Below are positions 13,055 to 25,161 of a stretch of DNA of 64,000 bases, piece after piece (within the stretch, counting starts at the first letter, position 1; each line of letters opens with the position of its first letter). This DNA comes from a virus. A program made the position numbers and the translations under genes. The notes below the pieces were generated by a model, which did not search any database, had not been told where the DNA came from, and worked only from the letters and a program-made list of their open reading frames with translations. The stretch lies in the IMG/VR virus record IMGVR_UViG_3300010885_049703, positions 50,260-114,259 of that record. The stretch is one strand, 5' to 3'.

Positions 13055-14347
13055 TTAATAACGATATGTCTCTGGTTTGAAAGGTCCATTAAGGTCTACA
13101 CCAATGTAGTCGGCTTGTCGTTGTGTTAGTGTAGTTAGTGTAGCACCAACGTGAGCTAAATGCAACCTAGCAACCTCCTCATCTATGTGTTTTGGCAACA
13201 GATAAATGTCTACTTTGCTGTATTTTGATGAATTGGTCCACAGCTCAAGTTGAGCCAACACCTGATTGGTGAAACTAGTTGACATCACGTAACTTGGGTG
13301 CCCCGTGGCGCAGCCCAGGTTTACCAGTCGACCTCGGGCCAACACAATAATTTTACGACCATCGGGCCATACCACATGGTCTACCAGAGGCTTGATTTCT
13401 TCCCAGACCAAGTCTTGTAAGCCGGCAATGTCAATTTCACTATCAAAGTGACCAATGTTACACACAATGGCATTACGTTTCATGCGATCCATGTGATGAC
13501 GAGTGATCACATCAACATTGCCTGTGGCAGTGACAAAGATGTCGGCTATCTCAGCCGCGTAGTCCATGGTCACAACTTCATACCCGTCCATGGCTGCCTG
13601 CAATGCACAGATAGGATCAATCTCAGTAATCCATACCCTGGCGTTTAATGCACGTAAGGCTTGAGCTGACCCTTTGCCTACATCGCCATAACCAGCAACC
13701 ACAGCAGTTTTACCTGCGATCATAACATCTGTAGCACGTTTGATCGCATCCACTAGACTTTCACGACAACCATACAAGTTATCAAATTTTGTTTTGGTGA
13801 CTGAATCATTGACATTGATCGCGGGAATCTTTAATGTACCTGCAGCAATACGTTCTACAAGTTTATGAATACCTGTGGTAGTCTCTTCACTGACACCAAT
13901 GATGCCGGGCAACAGATCAGGATGGCGATCATGCACCCATGCAGTGAGATCATGCCCATCATCTAACAATAGATTAGGTACCCATCCATTGGGACCGCGT
14001 ACGGTTTGTTCAATACACCACCAATATTCTTCTTCAGATTCACCTTTCCAAGCAAACACTGGAATACCCTGTGCAGCCAATGCGGCTGCTGCATGATCCT
14101 GCGTTGAAAAAATATTACAACTTGACCAACGTACTTCGGCACCAAGATCAACAAGTGTTTGAACCAATACTGCAGTCTGGATAGTCATATGTAGACTACC
14201 TGTGATACGTGCGCCCTGGAGAGGTTTTGTACTACGATACTTTTCACGCACAGACATCAAGCCCGGCATCTCTTGTTCAGCAATGGCGATTTCTCGTTGC
14301 CCCCAGGCCGCTAGGTCAATGTCAGCTACTTTAAAGTCATAGTGCAT
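13055..14347 (-). CDS. ahcY: S-adenosylhomocysteine hydrolase
   Basis: [58 protein letters not shown]; start MHYDFKV at 14347. Confidence 0.98.
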
Positions 14348-14510
14348 TGTCTGTGGCCCCCTGTGGACGTTTTTCGCGGCGAGGTTGAATTGCTGCTGCA
14401 AGTTCGGCTTGTATCATTGCTGATTTGTATGCATGCATGCGATCACCAAGTAATGTTGCCATTACTCGTTTGGTGGTTTTTGATAGGTTAAAGTGTTTAC
14501 CTGGTTTCAT
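14337..14510 (-). CDS. Small basic hypothetical protein (57 aa)
   Basis: Not in track: [57 protein letters not shown]; ATGA-coupled to rpoZ. Confidence 0.7.
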
Positions 14511-15382: not shown

Positions 15383-16390
15383 ATGATATCATTTGAAGAA
15401 ATCAGAGATGTGCATTTGGAAATCTCTAGCCTATGCAATGCTGCCTGCCCGTTATGCCCTAGAAATTTTCGAGGGTATCCGCACAATGATGGATATCCAG
15501 AAGCCAACATGACATTGGCACAGGCACAACAAATCTTTGATCCCAATTTTGTTTCACAGTTGTCACGCATCTACCTCAATGGCAATTTTGGAGACATTGT
15601 GATGAATCCAGAAACCCCAGACATTGTTGAGTACTTTCGAGCAAATAATCCCAATTTAATCATTGCGATCAGCACAAATGGATCAGGTAGAGATCGAAAA
15701 TTTTGGCAAAGATTGGCCAATGCAGGAGCCAAAGTTTTTTTCTGTCTCGATGGACTAGAGGACACACATCACTTGTATAGGCAAAACACAGTGTGGCGCC
15801 AAATACTTCGCAATGCTGAAACTTTTATTGCCGCTGGTGGTTATGCTACTTGGAAGTTTATATTGTTTGACCATAACCAACATCAGATACAACAATGTCG
15901 TGAGCTGTCAGAACAATTAAAATTCGCACATTTTGAAATCATCAACGATGGCAGAAACATAGGGCCAGCGTTTGACAAACACGGAGAACTCACACATGTC
16001 ATCGGCGACTATCAAGGCTCAACAGATTTTAAAACAATGTTCTTTAAGAAAAAAACAGACACAGTTGTATTAGAAGATATCATTGTTGATAAAAAAGTAA
16101 AATCAACAGTCATCTGTGAAGCCAAAATTACCAAGTCAATCTATGTTACATCCATTGGTGAAGTGTATCCCTGCTGCTTCATGGGCTACTATCCAAGAAC
16201 CTACGGGCGAGGGGAATACCATCAAGCAGTTAATTCACAGATAGCACTGTTGATGCAAAATAACAATGCGTTGGACTCATCTATTAAACAATGCATTGAG
16301 TGGTTTGCTGATGTAGAAACATCCTGGAAGAAGGCTACGTATGAATCTGGCAGATTAGTAGTGTGTGATGATAACTGCGGGTCTTGTTGA
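15383..16390 (+). CDS. Radical SAM protein with SPASM/twitch domain
   Basis: CNAACPLC; GEVYPCC; C-terminal CDDNC; TAAATA upstream. Confidence 0.9.
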   Translation: MISFEEIRDVHLEISSLCNAACPLCPRNFRGYPHNDGYPEANMTLAQAQQIFDPNFVSQLSRIYLNGNFGDIVMNPETPDIVEYFRANNPNLIIAISTNGSGRDRKFWQRLANAGAKVFFCLDGLEDTHHLYRQNTVWRQILRNAETFIAAGGYATWKFILFDHNQHQIQQCRELSEQLKFAHFEIINDGRNIGPAFDKHGELTHVIGDYQGSTDFKTMFFKKKTDTVVLEDIIVDKKVKSTVICEAKITKSIYVTSIGEVYPCCFMGYYPRTYGRGEYHQAVNSQIALLMQNNNALDSSIKQCIEWFADVETSWKKATYESGRLVVCDDNCGSC

Positions 16391-16391
16391 T

Positions 16392-17027
16392 TTATTTTTG
16401 CATGAGTTGATTGACAAAATCAAGTAAGAGATGATGTTGACCGCCGTTCCAGCGACTGCGCATCCAGCTGTAGCAATTGTACCAATGCTGATCGGCTTCG
16501 GGATGACATCCTATCAGTCCCACACGATCTTGCATGATGGCCATGGCGTCACCATTGGCATATCGAGCAACGGTCTCGAAGTTGTTGCCTACAAATGCAC
16601 AGCCGTCATAAAAGTACATGTTTGTGGGCATGTCTTGCCAAGTCACTGAGATGTGTTTGGCGTGCGGACGTCGTGTGTCTGTGTTGGGCTGACGAATATA
16701 CTGCACTGCTCTGACACCATTTAGCAGCCCAAAATAATCTGTATCAGCCCAGTATGCACCCATGCAAATGCCCAGATATCTACCACCCCCGGCCACAAAG
16801 TTGCGTATGCGTTGAGCATGTTGACGCATCAGGAAATCGTAACTGTCGCTATCCCCTATACCGCCCGGGAAACAAACCATGTCAACATCGTCAAAAAAGT
16901 CATCTTCTAGTTCGTGACGAGTAAACAGTTTGAAGTTATAGTGTGGCTCAAGAGCTCGTATGACCCCGTTGCCGCTTTGCACTGAACATCGGGGCTGGTG
17001 TACAAACAAGGCTATGCGCCTGTGCAT
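16392..17027 (-). CDS. BPL_N / class I glutamine amidotransferase-like protein
   Basis: FPGG, GGRYLGICMGAY, GCHPE. Confidence 0.82.
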   Translation of the reverse strand: MHRRIALFVHQPRCSVQSGNGVIRALEPHYNFKLFTRHELEDDFFDDVDMVCFPGGIGDSDSYDFLMRQHAQRIRNFVAGGGRYLGICMGAYWADTDYFGLLNGVRAVQYIRQPNTDTRRPHAKHISVTWQDMPTNMYFYDGCAFVGNNFETVARYANGDAMAIMQDRVGLIGCHPEADQHWYNCYSWMRSRWNGGQHHLLLDFVNQLMQK

Positions 17028-17172: not shown

Positions 17173-17198
17173 AAACAAAAAGGGCTCCGAAGAGCCCT
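17173..17198 (-). terminator. Intrinsic terminator with UUCG loop
   Basis: AGGGCTC-TTCG-GAGCCCT followed by a T-tract, after the porin. Confidence 0.9.
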
Positions 17199-17257
17199 GT
17201 GTTGCTACTGGTTACGGGTTCCAGTGATCGCCCAATCTTTGCGCCCGATTTCATGAA

Positions 17258-18673
17258 TTAGAAGCTAATTTGGCCTCTGAGCATAACTGCCTGTTCGCCA
17301 TCTACACGAGCACCAGATGTACCAACTGGTTTGTTAAACTTAGTGTCAACGTAGTTTGCCATCAAACGTACATTGTCGTTTAAGAACCAAGTAACACCGT
17401 AAGTAATGGAGGTTGCTAGGTTTGCTTTACCTGTTGCAACAGTGATATCTTCAGCATTGAACTCACTGGCACGTACACCAACTTGCCATGCACCCTTGCC
17501 ACCACTTGTGTAAGCAGAGTTAGGTTTGATCCAACCAAATATACCATCTTTGTAGTTGTGGCTCTCACCCGTGATATTATAGATTGCCTGAACATAGTGA
17601 CCAGTAATCTCTTTATCTGTACCAGTAGCGGGGTCATAGTTGAAGTTGAAATGCTCACCTTGCAATTTCAAACCCTTCCAAGCAAATGCTGCTTCAATGC
17701 CTTGGCGTGTTCGTGCGGTATCACCACTCAATGCTGATGATCCTGTGAACCATGCACTTTGCTGGCGGCCTTCAGTACGACCACTGGCAGGAGCAACTCC
17801 AGTTTTGACATTGCCTGTGCTGTATGCTGCACCCAAGTGTGCCACAAAGTCTTTGTTCTGAATTACTTCTGCAATGTTTGTAGTCACACGTCCAACAACA
17901 TCTACACCATCAACTGCGGTGCTCTTGTTAGCACGACCACGGCTTAGTGCCACAGCGTAGGTAAATCCTGTTCTAGGAATACCATGTAACATCACACCAG
18001 TTTCTTTGGCAGGAATAAATTCACCTTCAGTCTGACCAATCAAACTACGTTCCATGAAGTCAATGTTGTTGGAACTGGTCAACTGTTCTAAACTGAAAGG
18101 CATCTTAAATGTACCAACTTGTAGTTGTGCCTCTGTGATAGCAGCATAGTTAAACCAGAATTCATCAATGGTTGATGTGGTTGAACTTGCGCCAGCGTCG
18201 TTACCAAAGTTTGCCAAGAGAAGATATTTGAAGTCTTTGGCAATCTGTCCACGTACACCAAAACGTCCACGACGAACTTCCAATGTGTCTTGATATGGAT
18301 CGGTTGATTGACCAGAACTAAATGTTTGAGTATAACTTCTGTAGTCCATGTGAATACGACCAGTAAACTGTGCTGTGGTATTGCCATCTTTGGATTTGAT
18401 ACCAAGACCATTTTCCATCACAGCGCCATCATTCGCTCTGCTCAAACGATAGTTGTTGCTGTCCTTGACATCTTTGTCAATTCTAGATGATTGGAATTCT
18501 TTGTTTTCCAAACGATCCCGGTGTGCTTCAATTTTAGAAGAGTGTTCTTGCTTAGATAGAATTCCTTTTTGTAAAAGAATATCTAATGTATCAGTGTATT
18601 CATCTGCTTGCACAGATCCAGCAAACGACAAGGCAATTGCCAGCGCCGCTGTTAGCATTTTAAAGTGTTTCAT
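17258..18673 (-). CDS. Phosphate-selective porin, OprO/OprP family
   Basis: Signal peptide, RRGRFGVRG, FKMPFSLE..TSSN..DFMERS, C-terminal Phe; adjacent to pstS. Confidence 0.9.
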   Translation of the reverse strand: MKHFKMLTAALAIALSFAGSVQADEYTDTLDILLQKGILSKQEHSSKIEAHRDRLENKEFQSSRIDKDVKDSNNYRLSRANDGAVMENGLGIKSKDGNTTAQFTGRIHMDYRSYTQTFSSGQSTDPYQDTLEVRRGRFGVRGQIAKDFKYLLLANFGNDAGASSTTSTIDEFWFNYAAITEAQLQVGTFKMPFSLEQLTSSNNIDFMERSLIGQTEGEFIPAKETGVMLHGIPRTGFTYAVALSRGRANKSTAVDGVDVVGRVTTNIAEVIQNKDFVAHLGAAYSTGNVKTGVAPASGRTEGRQQSAWFTGSSALSGDTARTRQGIEAAFAWKGLKLQGEHFNFNYDPATGTDKEITGHYVQAIYNITGESHNYKDGIFGWIKPNSAYTSGGKGAWQVGVRASEFNAEDITVATGKANLATSITYGVTWFLNDNVRLMANYVDTKFNKPVGTSGARVDGEQAVMLRGQISF

Positions 18674-18702
18674 TGAGGTTTCCTTTCGAATAATCCACCA
18701 AC

Positions 18703-18732
18703 ACTATACTACATTATGTTGGTGGATGTCAA
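18703..18732 (-). promoter_or_regulatory. sigma70-type promoter overlapped by an 11-bp inverted repeat
   Basis: TTGACA-N18-TATAGT; arms ATCCACCAACA (18693-18703) and TGTTGGTGGAT (18717-18727). Confidence 0.55.
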
Positions 18733-18737
18733 GTGTA

Positions 18738-19763
18738 TTACTTCCAAATTGATTGACCACTGGGGTCTTTCAGATCTTTTTTCCAGTTATCTTGTACTAA
18801 TTTGATAACAGACTGAGGCATGTGTACATATTCCAATTCTTCACTCATCTTAGCGCCGTTTTTATAGGACCAGTCAAAGAATTTAAGAATAGCACGACCA
18901 GTCAAGCCATCTGCTTGTTGACGGTGCATTATGATAAAACTAGCACCAGTTGCTGGCCAAGAATCTTTGCCAGTTTGGTTTGTCAGTAACAAATACATTC
19001 CTGGAGCGTTGTTCCAATCTGCACCTGCTGCGGCTGCTTTAAATGTGCTGTCATCTGGTTGTACAAAGTTGCCATCACGATTTTTCAATTGTGCATGAGC
19101 AATTTTATTTTTCTTGGCAAATGCATATTCCACATACCCAAAAGAACCTTTGACACGTTGAATGTTGGCTGCAACACCTTCATTGCCTTTGCCGCCTACA
19201 CCAACTGGCCACTTTACGGCTGTACCTTCACCAATTGTTTTAGCAAAATCAGCATTTACTTTGCTTAGATAGTTTGTCCAAATAAATGTTGTACCTGAAC
19301 CATCTGCACGGTGTACTTCGGTAATATTCATTGCTGGTAGTGTAACGCCAGGATTCAAATCAGTGATTGCTTTGTCATTCCACTTGGTAATTTTGCCTAG
19401 ATGAATATTGGCAATTACATCACTGGTCAGTTTTAATTGTCCCGGTTCTACACCATCAAGATTAACCACTGGAACAACACCACCAATGATTGCAGGGAAT
19501 TGCATCAAACCTTCTTTTTCCAGTTCTTCTGGTTTCAATGGCATATCACTGGCGCCAAAGTCTACTGTCTTGGCTTTGATTTGACGTATGCCGCCGCCTG
19601 AGCCAATGCTTTGATAATTGAGTCCAATGCCTGTTGCTGCTTTGTAAGCTTCTGCCCATTTAGAATAAATTGGGTAGGGAAATGTAGCACCGGCACCGGT
19701 TAAATCTGCTGCAAACGCCACTCCGGTTAGCGTTAATAATACGGCTGCAATGAGTCGTTTCAT
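18738..19763 (-). CDS. pstS: Phosphate ABC transporter periplasmic binding protein
   Basis: GAGATFPYP, YQSIGSGGG, DFGASD, HRADGSGTT, GKGNEGV. Confidence 0.98.
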   Translation of the reverse strand: MKRLIAAVLLTLTGVAFAADLTGAGATFPYPIYSKWAEAYKAATGIGLNYQSIGSGGGIRQIKAKTVDFGASDMPLKPEELEKEGLMQFPAIIGGVVPVVNLDGVEPGQLKLTSDVIANIHLGKITKWNDKAITDLNPGVTLPAMNITEVHRADGSGTTFIWTNYLSKVNADFAKTIGEGTAVKWPVGVGGKGNEGVAANIQRVKGSFGYVEYAFAKKNKIAHAQLKNRDGNFVQPDDSTFKAAAAGADWNNAPGMYLLLTNQTGKDSWPATGASFIIMHRQQADGLTGRAILKFFDWSYKNGAKMSEELEYVHMPQSVIKLVQDNWKKDLKDPSGQSIWK

Positions 19764-19808
19764 ATGTTGTCCTTAAAAGTTAAGCAGATGATGTTGCTCT
19801 GCAGTCAG

Positions 19809-19843
19809 TATTTAAACACATTAATATTACAACAGCATTACAA
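19809..19843 (-). promoter_or_regulatory. Pho box plus TAAATA element upstream of pstS
   Basis: TTGTAAT-GCTG-TTGTAAT (11-nt period; consensus CTGTCAT-N4-CTGTCAY), then 11 nt, then TAAATA. Confidence 0.75.
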
Positions 19844-19846
19844 AAT

Positions 19847-20851
19847 CTAAATCAATTCCACCAAATTATTACGGAAGATTTCCCAGGCCGATTGCCATGA
19901 CCAACGATGACTTCCGGCTTCAACTGTGCTGCGATCCAATTTCAAACACTCGTCTACAGCATGTTTTAAGTCTAGACTGAGATATCCAGTGACTCCAGGA
20001 TCAACTACGTCCATGGGACCTGCACAGGGATAGGCAGCAACAGGAGTACCACAGGCCATGGCTTCAATCATTACAATACCAAATGTTTCCCACTGACTGG
20101 GAAACACAAACACATCGGCGTTGGCGTAATAAGTTGCCAGCCGTTCTCCGGTTTTGAATCCCACAAAATGCACATCAGGGTAACGACGTTCTAGTTCTTC
20201 TCGGTATGGACCATCTCCCACCATAATTTTTGTTGCACCCGGATAATCTAGGCCGCAGAAGTCATCTAAGTTTTTCTCTTGACTGATACGACTCACACAC
20301 AACAACACCGGACTGGTGCGCGAGCGTGTTCGCGATGATGGATTGAATAGTGCTCGATCAACTCCACGGGTCCAAGGAACCAGTTCTCCATCAAACCCAC
20401 GGCTGCGCAAATCTTTTACCATGGTATCAGTTGTTGTTAGAACCTTGCCTGAGTGTTTGTGGAACCAACGCACTAAGGGCCAAGTAAGGGCTTCAGGAAT
20501 TCCAAATAGTTTTTTGAGTCCTTCAGGGAATTTAGTATGATAAGCAGTATTGTAGCGATAACCACGTTTTGAAAGATATTTTCTAGCAGACAGACCAATA
20601 GGACCCTCGGTGGCGATATGGATATGATCCGGATTGATCTCCTCAATCTTCTTGCCCATCGCCCGGGGATAGGCAATCTTGAGTTCGTTGTAGCGAGGAC
20701 AACTAATGTAGCTGAAGTCCCCGGGAGTAATGTAAACAACGCGATAACCATCCATAACCGCACACGCTTCAATATTTTTGTATGTTGTAACAACGCCATT
20801 GATTTGATCCGGTAAATTATCTGTGATGATCAAGATTGTTTTTGCTGACAT
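19847..20851 (-). CDS. agt: GT4 glycosyltransferase, Agt-type glycolipid synthase
   Basis: QINGVVTT, HIATEGPIG, YHTKFPE, RGVD, EKN, ETFG.V..EAMACG; paired with plcP. Confidence 0.8.
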   Translation of the reverse strand: MSAKTILIITDNLPDQINGVVTTYKNIEACAVMDGYRVVYITPGDFSYISCPRYNELKIAYPRAMGKKIEEINPDHIHIATEGPIGLSARKYLSKRGYRYNTAYHTKFPEGLKKLFGIPEALTWPLVRWFHKHSGKVLTTTDTMVKDLRSRGFDGELVPWTRGVDRALFNPSSRTRSRTSPVLLCVSRISQEKNLDDFCGLDYPGATKIMVGDGPYREELERRYPDVHFVGFKTGERLATYYANADVFVFPSQWETFGIVMIEAMACGTPVAAYPCAGPMDVVDPGVTGYLSLDLKHAVDECLKLDRSTVEAGSHRWSWQSAWEIFRNNLVELI

Positions 20852-21006
20852 GAACCCTCCACTCTAAAACTTTTGAATTTAAAATCGTAACGCATGGTTC
20901 GTAGAACTCGTTCGCAGGCAGTGCGATCAGTGAACTCCAACTCTATCCTTCCGGGTTGATCCGTTGGATCGTTTACGTGTACTGCTATCAATATCATCAA
21001 CCACAT
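20830..21006 (-). CDS. Small secreted or membrane-anchored protein (58 aa)
   Basis: Not in track: MWLMILIAVHVNDPTDQPGRIELEFTDRTACERVLRTMRYDFKFKSFRVEGSCQQKQS; fills the plcP-agt gap. Confidence 0.6.
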   Translation of the reverse strand: MWLMILIAVHVNDPTDQPGRIELEFTDRTACERVLRTMRYDFKFKSFRVEGSCQQKQS

Positions 21007-21760
21007 CATCTCGCTCCTGTGTCCAAGTTATTATCTCCCAGCGACCGTTGTGATGTTCAACCAATGCTGTGCATGATTCAACCCAGTCACCGTCGTTCAT
21101 GTAGACAACACCATCTATTTCTTTGATTTCTGCTTTGTGTATGTGTCCACAGATTACACCATCGTAGCCACGCTTCTTGCAGTATGTTGCTAGGTTCTTT
21201 TCAAATTGAAAGACAAAATCAATCGCTTTCTTGACTCGACCTTTAAGATATAAGCTGAGACTCCAATAACCAAAGCCGAGCCGGTGACGAATCCAATTAA
21301 AGCGGGAATTAAGTGTGAGTATAAAATCATATGCTTTGTCTCCTAGTATAGATAGCCATGGTGCCAGTCTAGTGATACCATCAAACAAGTCACCGTGTGT
21401 GACTAGATAATGACGACCGTCGGCACCAATGTGTTCGCATTGATTGACTATTTCAAAGTTGCCAAACCCTATACCATACTGCATGAATGGTCTTAGGAAC
21501 TCATCATGATTGCCAGCCACGTAAACGACTCGTGTTCCACGTTTGCTATAACCCAGCACACGGCGCACTACATTGGTATGACTTTGTTTCCACCGCCATT
21601 TGTTTTGTTTTATTTTCCAAGCATCAATAATGTCGCCTACAAGATACAATGTATCGCAGGTGGTGTGTTTGAGAAAATTGTTGAGCTGATCGGCCTTGCA
21701 ATCTTTGGTGCCAAGGTGAACATCAGAAATGAATACACTGCGATATGTTTTTGTTGTCAT
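20927..21760 (-). CDS. plcP: PlcP-type phospholipase C (LpxH-like metallophosphoesterase)
   Basis: SDVHLG, LVGDIID, GNHDE, HGDLFD, CGHIH, NDGDWVES; upstream of agt, behind a Pho box. Confidence 0.82.
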   Translation of the reverse strand: MTTKTYRSVFISDVHLGTKDCKADQLNNFLKHTTCDTLYLVGDIIDAWKIKQNKWRWKQSHTNVVRRVLGYSKRGTRVVYVAGNHDEFLRPFMQYGIGFGNFEIVNQCEHIGADGRHYLVTHGDLFDGITRLAPWLSILGDKAYDFILTLNSRFNWIRHRLGFGYWSLSLYLKGRVKKAIDFVFQFEKNLATYCKKRGYDGVICGHIHKAEIKEIDGVVYMNDGDWVESCTALVEHHNGRWEIITWTQERDDVVDDIDSSTRKRSNGSTRKDRVGVH

Positions 21761-21781
21761 GGGCTGTTGTGCTTGAACAGA

Positions 21782-21816
21782 TATTTAAGGTCATGTACAT
21801 TACAGATACGTTACAT
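21782..21816 (-). promoter_or_regulatory. Pho box plus TAAATA element upstream of plcP
   Basis: ATGTAAC-GTAT-CTGTAAT, then 11 nt, then TAAATA; same geometry as at pstS. Confidence 0.72.
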
Positions 21817-21820
21817 CATG

Positions 21821-21843
21821 AAAAAGCCCGCCGAAGCGGGCTT
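21821..21843 (-). terminator. Intrinsic terminator after tmRNA
   Basis: AAGCCCGC-TTCG-GCGGGCTTTTT. Confidence 0.9.
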
Positions 21844-21844
21844 A

Positions 21845-22140
21845 CTATTTTGGGTTACAAGGCATAGTTGCCCCGGGGATTACGCTGCGAGAGCGAAAAC
21901 CTCGTCGTTAGCTGCGTTTGCAGTTACTAGTTTGCTTGGATTACGTCCATCGCCTGGCGTGTTGCCTTCTTTGCTATCTCACCCTGTCGAAGCCAGGTCT
22001 GGCCCATCAGAAACATACTTCGTCCTGCAGTACGGTCCTTTTCACAAAGAGTCGCACGGTCTGCAAATATGTTTCTGGTGGACCAGGTGGGAGTCGAACC
22101 CACGTCCAGAATGCCTTTACTCCAAAGGAATTACAACAAT
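21845..22140 (-). ncRNA. ssrA: Circularly permuted two-piece tmRNA; tag ANAANDEVFALAA*
   Basis: Acceptor piece (T-arm GTGGG-TTCGACT-CCCAC, then CTGGTCC-ACCA ending at 22076) precedes the coding piece starting GGGCCAG at 22005 (G3-U70 Ala identity pair). Tag ORF 21921..21880. Outer ends approximate. Confidence 0.92.
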
Positions 22141-22153
22141 TCTTAATAGTCGC

Positions 22154-22576
22154 TTATTTATTTTGTGGTTGATAATCCACGTTGGGCATACTATACAATA
22201 GAAAATTGTGACTGACTGCATCAAATCTAATCTTGAACATGCAGACTCCCGGCTCGTCAAGGTAACCATAGCTGCGCTTTATGCCTCCACGTTTTAATCT
22301 ATAAACGCAAAAATGATCAAGGTCTATCAACGGTTCACCGCCTAACTCAATCAGTTCCACAATCACTGCGCTGTCTGTGTCTGTTCTTTCTATTACTTCT
22401 ACACCTACACTTGCAATAGTTGTGACATCATGAACAAAGTCAAATCGTACCAGGGCAGGCTCAACTTGTTGACTAGATACCGGGTCTCCCAATATCTGCC
22501 AACGTATGGCATTGCCTTTAGATCTGATGTATAACGAAAGATTTCTTTGATTTCTTGGCTTCAATGTATTGTTCAT
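22154..22576 (-). CDS. Hypothetical protein
   Basis: Protein-like ORF downstream of the radical SAM gene; start uncertain. Confidence 0.55.
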   Translation of the reverse strand: MNNTLKPRNQRNLSLYIRSKGNAIRWQILGDPVSSQQVEPALVRFDFVHDVTTIASVGVEVIERTDTDSAVIVELIELGGEPLIDLDHFCVYRLKRGGIKRSYGYLDEPGVCMFKIRFDAVSHNFLLYSMPNVDYQPQNK

Positions 22577-24065
22577 AAACTTCTTGTTGTTCGCGCAGCA
22601 TTCTATCAGCTTCTTGACCATCGCGGTCACCAAATCCTAGTTCGTGTTGTAATTCTAAAAAGCGCCGATATCGATCAAATCGTCTTTCATAGGTATTGTC
22701 TGGATTAGTTGGTGTACTCCAAAAAATATGACTCCATCCCTTGACCACATTCTCTCTTTCAAAATGATAATGATCACGCAATCTACTATCATTGGTTAGT
22801 GGTACTTGATCACCAAGAGTAAATGGCGACGAGATGGCTACACTCAATAATCCATCGTTTGCCCAGTGCCGATAACGACGCAACAAATTCAATGTTTCTT
22901 CAAAGTCTTCTTCAGTTTCCATTGGATAGCCGGCCATGAACAACCATACTTGTTTTATACCATTGTCATGCAATTGATGCGCAGTATAATCAATGTCAGT
23001 ATTGCTGAATTTTTTACGCATGTCATACCGTATACGTTCACTGCCGCTTTCTACTCCAATTATCCATTCAGAACATCCTGCTCGCCCTGCCAGTTCAAAG
23101 TCTCGAGGAGGTTGATTTTCTTTACCTCTAAAAATTGCATAACCGCTGTAACGCAATGTACGTGGCAAGTGATCTGCAAGATATTGATTCATTTTACGGT
23201 AGTTTGGTATGCTGCCGTTGATCAAGTTACCACTGAATCTAAAAAAGTCTATGCCTGTCCGATGATAACTTTTGATCATTTCTTCGGCCAACAGTTCACC
23301 ATCTTTGAAAATATATTTGGGCCAAAGATGTTCTACATCACAAAAGGTGCATTTTCTAACACAACCTTTGCTGTCTGTGATCAGCAGATATCGATCACTA
23401 GGATTAAATCTTTGATAGATATCAAAGTCGTAGTTGTCCCAATCAGGAATAGGCACTGCATTTAAGTCTTGACTGGTTTGTGGTGGCGAGTCAACTATAC
23501 CATACAGATCTTGTTGTATGACATCAATGATAAATGATTCAGCGTCACCTGTCACTACACAGTCTATCATGCCATGGTCTACTAGAAACCTAGCTCTTGA
23601 TCCTGTGGCATGAGTATCTCCAGTGTATTCACCTTGAGTTAAAATTTCTAGCCCGCGACCTCCGGCTAATATTTTTACTCCAGGAAGCCAGCGTCGAATG
23701 CTGTAACACATCAAGGTCAGATATGTTTCACTCATGACACTAAACACGCTCAATCCAACAATATCAGGATTGTATTTTTGTTTTATACCAATAAGTTTTT
23801 GTTTGTTCCATTTGAGAACATCAATCAGCACTCTTCTTGGTAGTTTACGATCAGGATTTGGGCCTTGACTGATATAAAAAAGCAATTCAGGCCAATAAGG
23901 TTTGTCCACAAATTCAGTTACAAATTCTGCAGCAAGATCCATGGGTACAGCACTTATGCCGGCTTTGTTTAAACAGGCACTGAGCAAAGCAGGAGCTGTG
24001 GCAGGCCAGCCTGGGGTCTGATAGGGTAGACTAACAATGACTATGGTGCGTTTATCAGTTGGCAT
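22518..24065 (-). CDS. B12-binding domain radical SAM protein
   Basis: DIVGLS, GDAE, GCVRKCTFC, GVESGS, GYPMETEEDF; start MPTDK at 24065. Confidence 0.9.
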   Translation of the reverse strand: MPTDKRTIVIVSLPYQTPGWPATAPALLSACLNKAGISAVPMDLAAEFVTEFVDKPYWPELLFYISQGPNPDRKLPRRVLIDVLKWNKQKLIGIKQKYNPDIVGLSVFSVMSETYLTLMCYSIRRWLPGVKILAGGRGLEILTQGEYTGDTHATGSRARFLVDHGMIDCVVTGDAESFIIDVIQQDLYGIVDSPPQTSQDLNAVPIPDWDNYDFDIYQRFNPSDRYLLITDSKGCVRKCTFCDVEHLWPKYIFKDGELLAEEMIKSYHRTGIDFFRFSGNLINGSIPNYRKMNQYLADHLPRTLRYSGYAIFRGKENQPPRDFELAGRAGCSEWIIGVESGSERIRYDMRKKFSNTDIDYTAHQLHDNGIKQVWLFMAGYPMETEEDFEETLNLLRRYRHWANDGLLSVAISSPFTLGDQVPLTNDSRLRDHYHFERENVVKGWSHIFWSTPTNPDNTYERRFDRYRRFLELQHELGFGDRDGQEADRMLREQQEVYEQYIEAKKSKKSFVIHQI

Positions 24066-24192
24066 TGTGATCTTCTTGTTGGGGTTTAAACAAGTATTCA
24101 TGCCATAATGCATAAGCAAATACCACCAGGCATCCAGTCAACATTGTGCCAAGTAAAAACCCAATAACAAAGTATAACTGTTCGGTGCCCAT
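24055..24192 (-). CDS. Small single-pass membrane protein
   Basis: MGTEQLYFVIGFLLGTMLTGCLVVFAYALW...; TAAGTA-N5-ATG. Confidence 0.6.
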   Translation of the reverse strand: MGTEQLYFVIGFLLGTMLTGCLVVFAYALWHEYLFKPQQEDHNAN

Positions 24193-24318: not shown

Positions 24319-25161
24319 TTATACGTTTGATGCTGCGACAATATGATTATGCATGATTTCTTTTACTTTGTCAAATCTTTGATAACGATTTTGAGCACCC
24401 ATAACGACCACAGCATACGTGCGACCGTTTTGTTCAACAACTACTCCCACACAATATCCAGCTGGATTGGTAAACCCAGTTTTGCTTACCACCACTTCGG
24501 GAAAAGCCAACAGCACCATGGTATTGGTATTCGGTACATGGCTAACGTTGGTGTACGTTTTGTGTTTACGATGCACCACAGTGGTAGTTGCCAAATCTTG
24601 ATAGGTTGAAATTCTACGTATGATTTGATATCCATATGCTGCCTCCAACATTCTCCCAACATCTTCGGCAGTACTGACATTGGTTTGAATGCGACCTGAC
24701 GGATCATCAAAGTGGGTGTTCAACATAGCCAACCGTGATGCCTTGTGGTTCATGGCATCAAGAAATGCAGTACGACCACCAGGATAATCGTGACTTAAAA
24801 ATTCTGCCACATTATTGTCACTGCGTATCAACAACCGTTGAAATAATTGTTCTCTAGTCACTAACCGACCTTGATACTGCACGGTCTGTTGAAGATTGGT
24901 GTTGCCGTCAAGGCTTACCATTGCAGTCATTAACTTAGTCAAACTGGCCATTGGCCTTACCAGTTGAGTTCCATGTCCTACGATAGGTGATTGTGTTTTG
25001 ATGTCATAGGCCCATACACTGATGGGATTCACTGTGCGAGCAGAATGATATTTTGCTTTTTTAACTGTTGCGTGATGCGAATGATGATGGTGACGTTTTT
25101 TAGCTTCAGCAGTGTTGACTAAACATGATAATGCAATGGCTATTAATAATATTTTTTTCAA
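24319..25161 (-). CDS. Peptidase S11 D-Ala-D-Ala endo/carboxypeptidase (PBP7/PbpG-like)
   Basis: Signal peptide; SLTK, SDN, KTG motifs. Confidence 0.9.
   Translation of the reverse strand: MKKILLIAIALSCLVNTAEAKKRHHHHSHHATVKKAKYHSARTVNPISVWAYDIKTQSPIVGHGTQLVRPMASLTKLMTAMVSLDGNTNLQQTVQYQGRLVTREQLFQRLLIRSDNNVAEFLSHDYPGGRTAFLDAMNHKASRLAMLNTHFDDPSGRIQTNVSTAEDVGRMLEAAYGYQIIRRISTYQDLATTTVVHRKHKTYTNVSHVPNTNTMVLLAFPEVVVSKTGFTNPAGYCVGVVVEQNGRTYAVVVMGAQNRYQRFDKVKEIMHNHIVAASNV

What the first reader, a model, noticed from the sequence alone, without database searches (positions are those of the whole stretch)
17258..21816. Complete phage phosphate-scavenging and membrane-lipid-remodelling module (plcP-small ORF-agt-pstS-porin)
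PlcP (phospholipase C) plus Agt (glycolipid synthase) is the established PhoB-regulated bacterial system that swaps phospholipids for P-free glycolipids. Here it is phage-borne, contiguous with PstS and an OprO/P porin, and has Pho boxes. Inference: the phage mines the host membrane for phosphate and boosts uptake across the outer membrane and periplasm to fuel replication. This goes well beyond the familiar pstS/phoH cargo.
Basis: partly seen in the sequence, partly recalled or inferred. Interest (0 to 1): 0.8.

Follow-up and report, generated by a model that had tools for sequence, protein, structure and literature searches.

The report
Phage-borne phosphate-starvation lipid-swap gene block
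A giant uncultured lake phage carries its own copies of the bacterial genes that strip phosphate from membrane lipids and replace them with sugar lipids. They sit beside phosphate-uptake genes and behind phosphate-starvation control sites, so the phage probably draws phosphorus from its host's membrane.

Summary
On the minus strand lie plcP (20927-21760), a 59-aa ORF (20830-21009), a GT4 glycosyltransferase (19847-20851), pstS (18738-19763) and a Porin_O_P porin (17258-18673), inside a T4-like jumbo-phage contig.

- **PlcP, not LpxH.** It scores 48 bits against a 134-bit LpxH cut-off. It is 56% identical to the P. aeruginosa PA3219-region protein and 49% to the S. meliloti SMc00171-region protein.
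- **Glycosyltransferase.** It is Agt-related (39% to the PA3218-region protein), but the clade's catalytic Asp is Glu here.
- **Pho boxes.** TGTAAY-N5-TGTAAT occurs only twice in the 114-kb contig, before plcP and pstS. In 1.2 Mb of related phage DNA, 43 of 47 sites lie before those two genes.
- **Spread.** At least 595 IMG/VR contigs carry the gene.

New details:
- a phage-only 57-aa protein follows plcP in 73 of 73 loci;
- GT4 and GT2 partners alternate;
- an uncatalogued pseudoknotted RNA follows the porin;
- the porin lacks OprP's Lys121.

I found no paper describing phage plcP/agt. This scan has noted the same module on at least 17 other genomes. No function has been tested biochemically.

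The parts
21799..21815 (-). Pho box 1: TGTAAC-gtatc-TGTAAT. A TTAAAT(A) -10-like hexamer follows 10 nt downstream, at about 21782-21788.
   Evidence: The matching position upstream of plcP holds the motif in 28 distinct related sites.
20927..21760 (-). plcP: PlcP-type phospholipase C, 277 aa. It is a metallophosphoesterase with intact DxH, GD, GNHD, HGD and GHxH motifs.
20830..21009 (-). Phage-specific small protein, 57-59 aa. It overlaps the 3' end of plcP and the start of the GT4 gene, which suggests translational coupling.
19847..20851 (-). Agt-related GT4 diacylglycerol glycosyltransferase, 334 aa. It belongs to the 'E-type' subclade, with motifs SRISQEKN and FPSQWETFG.
19826..19842 (-). 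Pho box 2: TGTAAT-gctgt-TGTAAT. A third degenerate repeat follows, and a TTAAAT(A) hexamer lies 10 nt downstream.
18738..19763 (-). pstS: periplasmic phosphate-binding protein, 341 aa, with a Sec-type signal peptide.
   Evidence: NF008171, 431 bits against a cut-off of 339. The signal peptide was read by eye.
18694..18732 (-). Sigma-70-like promoter TTGACA-18-TATAGT, overlapped by a 10-bp perfect inverted repeat, between pstS and the porin gene.
   Evidence: 11 of 12 consensus positions. The same layout occurs in L048.
17258..18673 (-). Outer-membrane porin of the Porin_O_P family, 471 aa, with a signal peptide and an N-terminal coiled-coil-like extension.
   Evidence: 140.6 bits; OprP 2o4v E 9e-15, OprO 4rjx E 1e-13; no homologue in GenBank phages.
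17205..17258 (-). Uncatalogued structured RNA motif: two hairpins joined by a covarying loop-loop pair.
   Evidence: No Rfam match.
17181..17198 (-). Intrinsic terminator that closes the block.

Best explanation
This is a host-derived block of Pho-regulon genes that has long been resident in a lineage of jumbo T4-like lake phages.

Proposed mechanism:
1. In a phosphate-starved infected cell, the host's PhoB~P binds the two Pho boxes. These sit where a -35 element would be, 10 nt upstream of a weak -10, and switch on plcP-small ORF-GT4 and pstS (inferred).
2. PlcP cleaves the phosphate-bearing head group from host phospholipids and leaves diacylglycerol (inferred from family membership).
3. The GT4 glycosylates the diacylglycerol to a phosphorus-free glycolipid, so the membrane stays intact (inferred).
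4. PstS, and a porin exported to the outer membrane, raise phosphate capture (inferred).
5. Host phosphatases and PstCAB, which the phage does not encode here, complete the flow of phosphorus into a roughly 350-kb DNA genome.

The 57-aa protein wedged between plcP and the glycosyltransferase is a phage-specific accessory of unknown role.

Shown here: gene identities, family placement, synteny, motif specificity and spread among phages. Not shown: any enzyme activity, regulation or benefit to the phage.
For: **PlcP identity**
- LpxH models reach 48 and 35 bits against cut-offs of 134 and 190.
- Five gammaproteobacterial genomes hold both a true LpxH (281-339 bits) and a separate PlcP-like paralogue (28-60 bits). 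Five alphaproteobacterial genomes hold only the latter.
- In trees, LpxH is split off by a branch of about 5 substitutions per site (100*). The phage clade is monophyletic (96-100*) inside the cellular PlcP radiation, and the P. aeruginosa and S. meliloti anchors fall in that radiation too.
- Identity is 55.6% (E 5e-95) to the P. aeruginosa protein beside a GT and cyaB, which is the PA3219 region. It is 48.6% (E 1e-87) to the single S. meliloti chromosomal homologue near sinI/sinR, which is the SMc00171 region.
- The characterised PlcPs are themselves only 46-47% identical to one another (PMC8528852).
- All five metallophosphoesterase motifs are intact.

**Lipid-glycosyltransferase partner**
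- A GT4 homologue lies directly downstream of plcP in most of the alphaproteobacterial loci fetched. This is the 'type 2' layout of PMC4796936.
- The window GT4 is 39% identical (E 3e-81) to the PA3218-region Agt1.
- Of 73 phage loci with enough flank, 33 have the GT4 and 35 have a GT2/GT21-like enzyme in the same slot.

**Pho boxes**
- There are two sites in the 114-kb contig and two in a complete 360-kb relative. All four lie before plcP or pstS.
- Of 47 distinct sites in 1.22 Mb of related phage DNA, 43 lie within 90 nt upstream of plcP or pstS.
- Each box has 4 mismatches to CTGTCATNNNNCTGTCAT. The best 18-mers upstream of the P. aeruginosa PA3219-region gene, where PMC8528852 reports a Pho box, also have 4.

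**Spread**
- At least 595 IMG/VR contigs carry a relative.
Against: - There are no biochemical or expression data.
- The GT4 has Glu where the Agt clade has its catalytic Asp. The D256E change costs the SAR11 enzyme over 90% of its activity, so the product could differ or the activity could be low.
- The porin lacks OprP Lys121, Lys126 and Arg218/220 in the HMMER alignment.
- The host is unknown, so its PhoB site preference is unknown.
- The block contains no phosphatase and no PstCAB.
- The -10-like TAAATA also resembles the core of a T4 late promoter, though only 5 of 63 ORFs in the window have it upstream.
Confidence: 0.7

Rival explanations
1. The block mainly keeps a starving host working. 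It lowers the cell's own phosphorus quota and keeps the membrane intact, so that newly imported phosphate goes to phage DNA. Under this reading it does not 'mine' lipids as a net phosphorus source.
For: This is the function assigned to PlcP-Agt in bacteria (PMC4796936). The glycosyltransferase is kept next to plcP in 68 of 73 loci, which points to membrane maintenance. PstS and the porin serve uptake.
Against: It is not separable from the main reading on sequence alone, because both use the same chemistry. Head-group phosphorus is released in either case.
Confidence: 0.15
2. The lipid change serves as surface or envelope remodelling that blocks superinfection or alters adsorption of competing phages. 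Phosphorus economy would then be secondary.
For: Papers returned concern host membrane lipids and phage attachment (PMC9938194) or phage therapy (PMC9804370); I read only their titles and abstract openings. The phage also installs a new outer-membrane porin.
Against: The Pho boxes, and the tight linkage with pstS across relatives, tie expression to phosphate status rather than to infection in general.
Confidence: 0.08
3. The phosphoesterase is an LpxH-type lipid A enzyme and the GT4 is an LPS or polysaccharide glycosyltransferase. This is how the databases annotate them.
For: JGI, GenBank and PLSDB all name the homologues 'UDP-2,3-diacylglucosamine diphosphatase/LpxH'.
Against: The scores are far below the LpxH cut-offs. 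Genomes with this gene keep a separate true LpxH. The tree splits LpxH off at 100*. The P. aeruginosa and S. meliloti proteins with the same label sit in the regions of the characterised PlcP genes.
Confidence: 0.03
4. The block is bacterial DNA wrongly joined to, or binned with, a phage contig.
For: The two best genome-collection matches are short contigs in Bacteroidota MAGs (L004, L005).
Against: Those two contigs carry the phage-specific RNA motif (L004) or small ORF (L005). The block lies in viral genomes that are 94-100% complete. G+C matches the rest of the window. Both phage gene clades are monophyletic.
Confidence: 0.01

Closest known systems
Bacterial PlcP-Agt lipid-renovation operon (S. 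meliloti SMc00171; Phaeobacter MED193; SAR11 HTCC7211 PlcP with Agt/GTcp; P. aeruginosa PA3219-PA3218; B. cenocepacia BCAL2364-2365)
   Same: - The same two enzyme families in the same order (plcP then a lipid glycosyltransferase).
- A Pho box upstream.
- 49-56% identity for PlcP and 39% for Agt1.
- An alternative GT2/GT21-type partner in some relatives. Bacterial plcP neighbourhoods also include other glycosyltransferases (types 3 and 5 of PMC4796936).
   Different: - It is encoded by a virus.
- A phage-only 57-aa gene is inserted between plcP and the glycosyltransferase and overlaps both.
- The window's GT4 has Glu-Trp where the Agt clade has Asp-Thr.
- There is no dagK.
- It is fused into one block with pstS and a porin.
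Cyanophage phosphate genes (pstS, phoA, phoH). A Synechococcus virus PstS is thought to help replication under phosphate starvation (PMC10976474). Control by the host PhoBR system through Pho boxes is from my own knowledge.
   Same: A host-derived pstS carried by a T4-like phage, and the logic of letting the host's starvation regulator drive phage genes.
   Different: - The PstS here is only 35-37% identical to cyanophage PstS and about 60% to proteobacterial PstS, which suggests a separate acquisition.
- The lipid-remodelling enzymes and the outer-membrane porin are not among the known phage phosphate genes in the papers I searched.
'LpxH' genes of Pelagibacter phage Mosig EXVC030M and Synechococcus phage S-SRM01
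   Same: They are homologues of the window's PlcP, at 48.5% and 37.8% identity. In Mosig the gene sits next to pstS.
   Different: - They are annotated as LpxH, and the papers I searched do not discuss them.
- They have no Agt-type GT4 beside them, and neither locus matches the small-ORF profile.
- Mosig falls outside the jumbo-phage clade in the trees, so it may be a separate capture. S-SRM01 sits on a very long branch, and I left it out of the second tree.
OprP/OprO phosphate- and polyphosphate-selective porins of P. aeruginosa (PDB 2o4v, 4rjx)
   Same: Pfam Porin_O_P over the whole barrel. The equivalents of Arg34, Asp38, Arg59, Arg60, Lys74 and Asp94 are conserved.
   Different: - Only about 20% identical.
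- Lys121 is Gln, Lys126 is Asn, and Arg218/220/222 are not kept.
- There is a roughly 60-residue N-terminal extension.
- It is encoded by a phage, and no homologue exists in 50,697 GenBank phage records.

Membership tests
PlcP (lipid-remodelling phospholipase C, LpxH-like metallophosphoesterase) | Calcineurin-type metallophosphoesterase domain with intact metal-binding motifs | tested here: met
   Pfam PF00149, E 2.5e-12. D13xH15, G42D43, G83N84H85D86, H122 and G205H206xH208 are all present.
PlcP (lipid-remodelling phospholipase C, LpxH-like metallophosphoesterase) | Strong similarity to experimentally characterised PlcP (PMC4796936 used BLASTP E < 1e-40 against MED193 PlcP) | tested here: met
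   E 5e-95 (55.6%) to the P. aeruginosa PA3219-region protein and E 1e-87 (48.6%) to the S. meliloti SMc00171-region protein. The MED193 sequence itself could not be obtained.
PlcP (lipid-remodelling phospholipase C, LpxH-like metallophosphoesterase) | A lineage separate from true LpxH | tested here: met
   Below the LpxH cut-offs. It coexists as a paralogue with true LpxH. The split has 100* support.
PlcP (lipid-remodelling phospholipase C, LpxH-like metallophosphoesterase) | Neighbourhood with a non-phosphorus-lipid synthesis gene, and a Pho box upstream | tested here: met
   A GT4 or GT2 follows in 68 of 73 phage loci. The Pho-box motif is specific to plcP and pstS.
PlcP (lipid-remodelling phospholipase C, LpxH-like metallophosphoesterase) | Phospholipase C activity on PE, PC or PG that yields diacylglycerol | not testable with these tools
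   Needs an enzyme assay or a complementation test.
Agt clade of GT4 (Atu2297, GTcp, PA3218: diacylglycerol glucosyl/glucuronosyl transferases) | GT-B GT4 domains and close similarity to a characterised Agt | tested here: met
   PF00534, PF13439. 39% identity, E 3e-81 to the PA3218-region Agt1. The phage GT4 clade and the cellular plcP-linked GT4s are split by a 100*-supported branch on a midpoint-rooted tree.
Agt clade of GT4 (Atu2297, GTcp, PA3218: diacylglycerol glucosyl/glucuronosyl transferases) | Signature FPSxTDTFG with a catalytic Asp (Asp256 of GTcp) in place of the usual GT4 Glu | tested here: not met
   The window has FPSQWETFG, with Glu255. 18 of the 19 full-length cellular plcP-linked GT4s have xTDTFG (one reads FDTFG). 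Phage GT4s split into a D-type (12) and an E-type (23) clade, with one change on the tree. I therefore file it as an Agt-derived variant, not a plain member.
Agt clade of GT4 (Atu2297, GTcp, PA3218: diacylglycerol glucosyl/glucuronosyl transferases) | UDP-sugar motif GRVAxEKN, the His of the catalytic dyad, and the Thr-Arg and Trp residues for diacylglycerol binding | tested here: inconclusive
   SRISQEKN (Arg, Glu, Lys and Asn kept), AYHTKFPE, PWTRGVD and WSWQSAW are present by motif inspection. I had no GTcp sequence for a residue-by-residue alignment.
PstS (phosphate ABC transporter substrate-binding protein) | Score above the equivalog cut-off | tested here: met
   NF008171: 431 bits against 339. 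TIGR00975: 386 bits against 205.
OprO/OprP phosphate-selective porins | Porin_O_P barrel | tested here: met
   PF07396, 140.6 bits, covering 3-348 of 370 model positions. OprP and OprO align over residues 87-460.
OprO/OprP phosphate-selective porins | Central phosphate-binding Lys121 and the extracellular arginine ladder (the roles of these residues are recalled from the OprP literature, not checked here) | tested here: not met
   In the alignment Lys121 is Gln, Lys126 is Asn and Arg218/220/222 are Gly/Ala/Ala. Arg34, Arg59, Arg60, Lys74 and Asp94 are kept. The alignment is only about 20% identical, so this result is tentative. Phosphate selectivity is not established.
PhoB-dependent promoter (Pho box) | Two or more 7-bp direct repeats at 11-bp spacing, in place of the -35 element and about 10 bp upstream of the -10 | tested here: met
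   There is a 10-nt gap to TTAAAT at both sites. Each box has 4 mismatches to the consensus, as do the best 18-mers upstream of the P. aeruginosa PA3219-region gene. PhoB binding itself was not tested.

The most novel reading that the evidence does not exclude
The phage has rebuilt the bacterial pathway into a machine of its own. Three things would be true under this reading:
- The invariant 57-aa protein is an obligate partner that retargets or activates PlcP.
- The Glu/Trp-type glycosyltransferase makes a head group that differs from the MGDG and GADG of bacteria.
- The single-copy pseudoknotted RNA after the porin is a new regulatory RNA (a riboswitch or a 3'-end-derived small RNA) that links the block to the cell's phosphorus state.
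Probability: 0.15. Interest if true: 0.85.

Novelty: new variant of a known kind. Interest (0 to 1): 0.7.

Why it matters
Known phage phosphate cargo is about uptake and signalling (pstS, phoA, phoH). This block adds membrane lipid renovation.

- **Scale of the phosphorus source.** By my own rough figures, an E. coli-sized cell holds about 2e7 phospholipids and a 350-kb genome needs about 7e5 phosphorus atoms. Lipid phosphorus could therefore pay for several to tens of jumbo genomes. These numbers are not a tool result.
- **How common it is.** At least 595 IMG/VR contigs carry the gene. It stays hidden because databases call it LpxH.
- **Field consequences.** If the enzymes are active, viral infection would shift the phospholipid-to-glycolipid ratios that are used as field markers of phosphorus stress. 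It would also tie viral yield in phosphorus-poor lakes to the host's PhoB state.

All of this can be tested by heterologous expression and lipidomics.

Tried and rejected
**Readings rejected or weakened**
- The LpxH reading is rejected.
- Chimeric or cellular origin is rejected.
- TAAATA as a general late promoter is unlikely. Only 5 of 63 minus-strand ORFs in the window have it within 60 nt upstream. Other genes show TGTTATAAT-type extended -10 elements.
- The small ORF is not a membrane or signal peptide. AlphaFold (pLDDT 89.7) places the hydrophobic N-terminus as a core beta-strand.
- I first read the RNA motif as the end-marker of Pho-driven operons. An unbiased sample of 80 loci weakened that. 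It follows pstS (22), GT4 (10), GT2 (3), porins and other outer-membrane proteins, but also regA (Pfam match in L202; three more loci carry near-identical 134-135-aa ORFs) and other small genes.
- The RNA motif is not a classic terminator riboswitch, because a 12-nt spacer separates it from the terminator.

**Searches that found nothing**
- For the small ORF: no PDB fold match with E <= 0.001, no Pfam or PHROG family, and only 66 clusters among 1.84 billion representative proteins.
- For the RNA motif: no Rfam family even at E <= 5.

**Host**
- Unresolved. The tmRNA best fits the Rfam betaproteobacterial two-piece model.
- The best named PstS matches are Ralstonia and Azospirillum.
- Two look-alike contigs are binned with Bacteroidota MAGs.
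- Strong Shine-Dalgarno sites and sigma-70-type promoters argue for a proteobacterial host.

- The genome search gave no family or genus names for genomes reached through loci. I found the named anchors through PLSDB records: a 3.7-Mb S. meliloti record that is chromosome-sized, and a 96-kb P. aeruginosa record labelled a plasmid that carries the plcP-GT-cyaB region.
- The tally (145 of 401 alphaproteobacterial genomes with a homologue) includes one unpublished genome, G250. No specific claim rests on it.

Full report
**What is there**

The window is part of a 114-kb IMG/VR viral contig that CheckV rates 33% complete, which implies a genome of about 350 kb. It carries a T4-type DNA polymerase (phrog_262, E 3.6e-193), six tRNAs and a two-piece tmRNA. 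G+C is even at 0.41-0.45 across the block.

Five minus-strand ORFs sit at the finding's coordinates:
- a metallophosphoesterase at 20927-21760;
- a 59-aa ORF at 20830-21009, which overlaps both neighbours;
- a GT4 glycosyltransferase at 19847-20851;
- PstS at 18738-19763 (NF008171, 431 bits against a cut-off of 339);
- a Porin_O_P porin at 17258-18673 (140.6 bits).

PstS and the porin begin with typical Sec signal peptides (read by eye). All genes except plcP have a Shine-Dalgarno site.

**PlcP or LpxH**

It does not.
- LpxH equivalog models give 48 and 35 bits against cut-offs of 134 and 190. Solved LpxH structures match only at E about 1e-3.
- Five gammaproteobacterial genomes that hold a homologue of the phage gene each also hold a true LpxH (281-339 bits). 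Their phage-like paralogue scores 28-60 bits. Five alphaproteobacterial genomes hold only the phage-like gene.
- A homologue (E 1e-13 to 1e-96) was found in 145 of 401 sampled alphaproteobacterial genomes (the sample includes one unpublished genome, G250, on which nothing specific rests).
- Named anchors came from PLSDB records. The P. aeruginosa protein followed by a GT and cyaB (the PA3219-PA3218-PA3217 region) is 55.6% identical, E 5e-95. The single S. meliloti chromosomal homologue near sinI/sinR (the SMc00171 region) is 48.6% identical, E 1e-87.
- Characterised PlcPs are themselves only 46-47% identical to each other (PMC8528852).
- In trees, LpxH is split off by a branch of about 5 substitutions per site (100*). 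The phage genes form one clade (96-100*) inside the cellular PlcP radiation, and both anchors fall in that radiation as well.
- All metal-binding motifs are intact.

**The glycosyltransferase**

In most of the alphaproteobacterial loci fetched, a GT4 homologue (36-44% identical to the window's) follows plcP directly. This is the 'type 2' layout of PMC4796936. The window GT4 is 39% identical (E 3e-81) to the PA3218-region Agt1.

Wei et al. (bioRxiv 10.1101/2021.03.25.437072) define the Agt clade by three features: GRVAxEKN, FPSxTDTFG, and a His-Asp dyad in which Asp replaces the usual GT4 Glu. In their enzyme the D256E change costs over 90% of activity. Of the 19 full-length cellular plcP-linked GT4s, 18 read xTDTFG (one reads FDTFG). 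The window has SRISQEKN and FPSQWETFG.

Phage GT4s form one clade (100*). It divides into a D-type subclade (12 rows) and an E-type subclade (23 rows, 97*), with a single change on the tree. I therefore file the window enzyme as an Agt-derived variant. Glu is the canonical GT4 catalytic residue, so the enzyme is probably active, perhaps with a different donor preference. That last point is inference.

**Conservation among phages**

- In 80 fetched loci, plcP is 78-97% identical to the window's.
- In all 73 loci with enough flank, the small ORF follows plcP. After that comes either the GT4 (33 loci) or a GT2 with a GT21-like profile (35 loci); 5 have neither. Two unrelated glycosyltransferases in the same slot is strong comparative support for a lipid-glycosylation step.
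- pstS and the porin are facultative and move around. Relatives show pstS-porin-plcP order, and some have a small outer-membrane protein instead of the porin.

**The small protein**

- It is 56-59 aa in almost all relatives, with invariant W2, A8, P14, D16, P18, F25, C31, K43, F44 and F47.
- It folds confidently (pLDDT 89.7) as beta-beta-alpha-beta.
- It has no PDB fold match with E <= 0.001.
- It has only 66 clusters among 1.84 billion representative proteins, and the nearest ESM Atlas clusters with recorded taxa are viral.
- A profile of it finds nothing in the cellular plcP loci, in Mosig or in S-SRM01.
- Its function is unknown. Its fixed position and overlaps suggest co-translation with PlcP and the GT.

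**Pho boxes**

TGTAAC-N5-TGTAAT (21799-21815) and TGTAAT-N5-TGTAAT (19826-19842) lie upstream of plcP and pstS. Each is followed 10 nt later by TTAAAT(A).

I derived the pattern from these two sites, so its count in the window is not independent evidence. The comparative evidence is:
- The relaxed pattern TGTMAY-N5-TGTMAY has two matches in the whole 114-kb contig. It also has two in a complete 360-kb relative, 50 nt before pstS and 38 nt before plcP, 173 kb apart.
- In 1.22 Mb of related loci, 43 of 47 distinct sites are within 90 nt upstream of plcP (28) or pstS (15).
- Some relatives carry near-consensus boxes, such as TGTCATAAAACTGTAAC.
- Each window box has 4 mismatches to CTGTCATNNNNCTGTCAT. 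The best 18-mers upstream of the P. aeruginosa PA3219-region gene, where PMC8528852 reports a Pho box, also have 4.
- TAAATA is not a general upstream element here: only 5 of 63 ORFs have it.

PhoB binding remains untested.

**Porin**

It aligns with OprP and OprO over the whole barrel (E 9e-15 and 1e-13). The equivalents of Arg34, Asp38, Arg59, Arg60, Lys74 and Asp94 are kept. Lys121 is Gln, Lys126 is Asn, and Arg218/220/222 are not kept. The roles of these residues are recalled from the OprP literature. Phosphate selectivity therefore rests on context alone.

No homologue exists in 50,697 GenBank phage records. A sigma-70-like promoter (TTGACA-18-TATAGT) with a 10-bp inverted repeat precedes the gene.

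**RNA motif**

Directly after the porin stop codon lies a roughly 53-nt element (17205-17258), followed by a terminator (17181-17198).
- In 37 variants, 92% of cells pair. There are 58 double-sided changes against 17.8 in shuffles (0 of 500 shuffles reach the observed value). Slid controls pair at only 27-41%.
- A loop-loop pair covaries: GC in 20 sequences, AU in 15, GU in 2, and none unpaired.
- A second, independent set of 74 hits gives 95.6% pairing.
- No Rfam family matches.
- It occurs once in each of five large phage genomes and once in the window's own contig.
- In an unbiased sample it most often follows pstS (22), GT4 (10), GT2 (3) or outer-membrane protein genes. It also follows regA (Pfam match in L202; three more loci carry near-identical 134-135-aa ORFs) and other small genes.
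- Its role is unexplained.

**Literature and earlier notes**

Searches for plcP, lipid remodelling, phospholipase C and phosphate porin together with phage terms found no description of phage-borne PlcP/Agt or an OprO/P-type porin. The Mosig-related, pelagimyophage and S-SRM01 papers do not discuss their 'LpxH' genes.

This scan has noted the same module on at least 17 other genomes, and those follow-ups reached the same reading. None of the indexed notes matched the RNA motif by sequence.

**Verdict**

Enzyme activities, PhoB control and the phosphorus benefit to the phage remain inferences.

Noticed in passing
window 21819-22238 (-): A two-piece (permuted) tmRNA lies directly upstream of Pho box 1. 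It scores 154 bits against Rfam beta_tmRNA and 140 bits against tmRNA_permuted. The tag peptide is ANAANDEVFALAA. Its terminator ends 8 nt before the Pho box. Phage tmRNAs are already known (PMC9004378).
   Followed up: partly
window 17205-17258 (-); 48 matches in L041-L120 and L004; 74 matches in L135-L214: A single-copy, roughly 53-nt pseudoknotted RNA motif (AAUCG-P1-GAU-P1'-CUGGA-N-CGUAACCAG) with strong covariation and no Rfam family. It is usually followed by a terminator, or sits 8-10 nt before the plcP start codon.
   Followed up: partly
window 16392-17027 (-): A 211-aa BPL_N / class-I glutamine-amidotransferase-like protein lies just past the block's terminator. Homologues lie within 10 kb of plcP in 37 of 80 related loci. 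In a complete 360-kb genome (L132) one sits directly before pstS. It may belong to the module; its function is unknown.
   Followed up: partly
L098:10910-11632 and 36 other places: Relatives without the GT4 carry a 240-aa GT2 (PF00535, with a GT21 hit PF13506) in the same slot after the small ORF.
   Followed up: yes
L132:4444-5001, L043, L053: In some relatives a 185-aa outer-membrane-type protein follows pstS instead of the Porin_O_P porin. It has a signal peptide and a C-terminal ...SF. The RNA motif follows it.
   Followed up: partly
L098:11716-12360, L082: A 214-aa Ala/Val/Glu-rich protein of low complexity has its own Pho box plus TAAATA promoter in two relatives. It matches no known family.
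   Followed up: no
L004 and L005 (genome contigs): Two short contigs binned into Bacteroidota MAGs (Haliscomenobacter sp., and a Lake Mendota Bacteroidia bacterium) carry the phage-type plcP-GT4. L004 also has the RNA motif and L005 the small ORF. They are probably phage contigs that were mis-binned.
   Followed up: partly
window 22518-24119 (-) and 15383-16390 (+): Two radical SAM proteins flank the block. One is a B12-binding type whose best but weak NCBIfam hit is the PhpK P-methyltransferase family (67 bits against a cut-off of 600). The other is a SPASM/twitch type.
   Followed up: no
window 13055-14401 (-) and 24319-25161 (-): An S-adenosylhomocysteine hydrolase (430 bits) and a D-Ala-D-Ala carboxypeptidase (Peptidase_S11). 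Both look like further host-type metabolic cargo.
   Followed up: no
L202:13171-13575 and L160, L213, L214: L202 encodes a T4 RegA-type translational regulator (PF01818, 160 bits). L213, L214 and L160 hold near-identical 134-135-aa ORFs that I did not scan. In all four loci the RNA motif lies just downstream of this gene.
   Followed up: no
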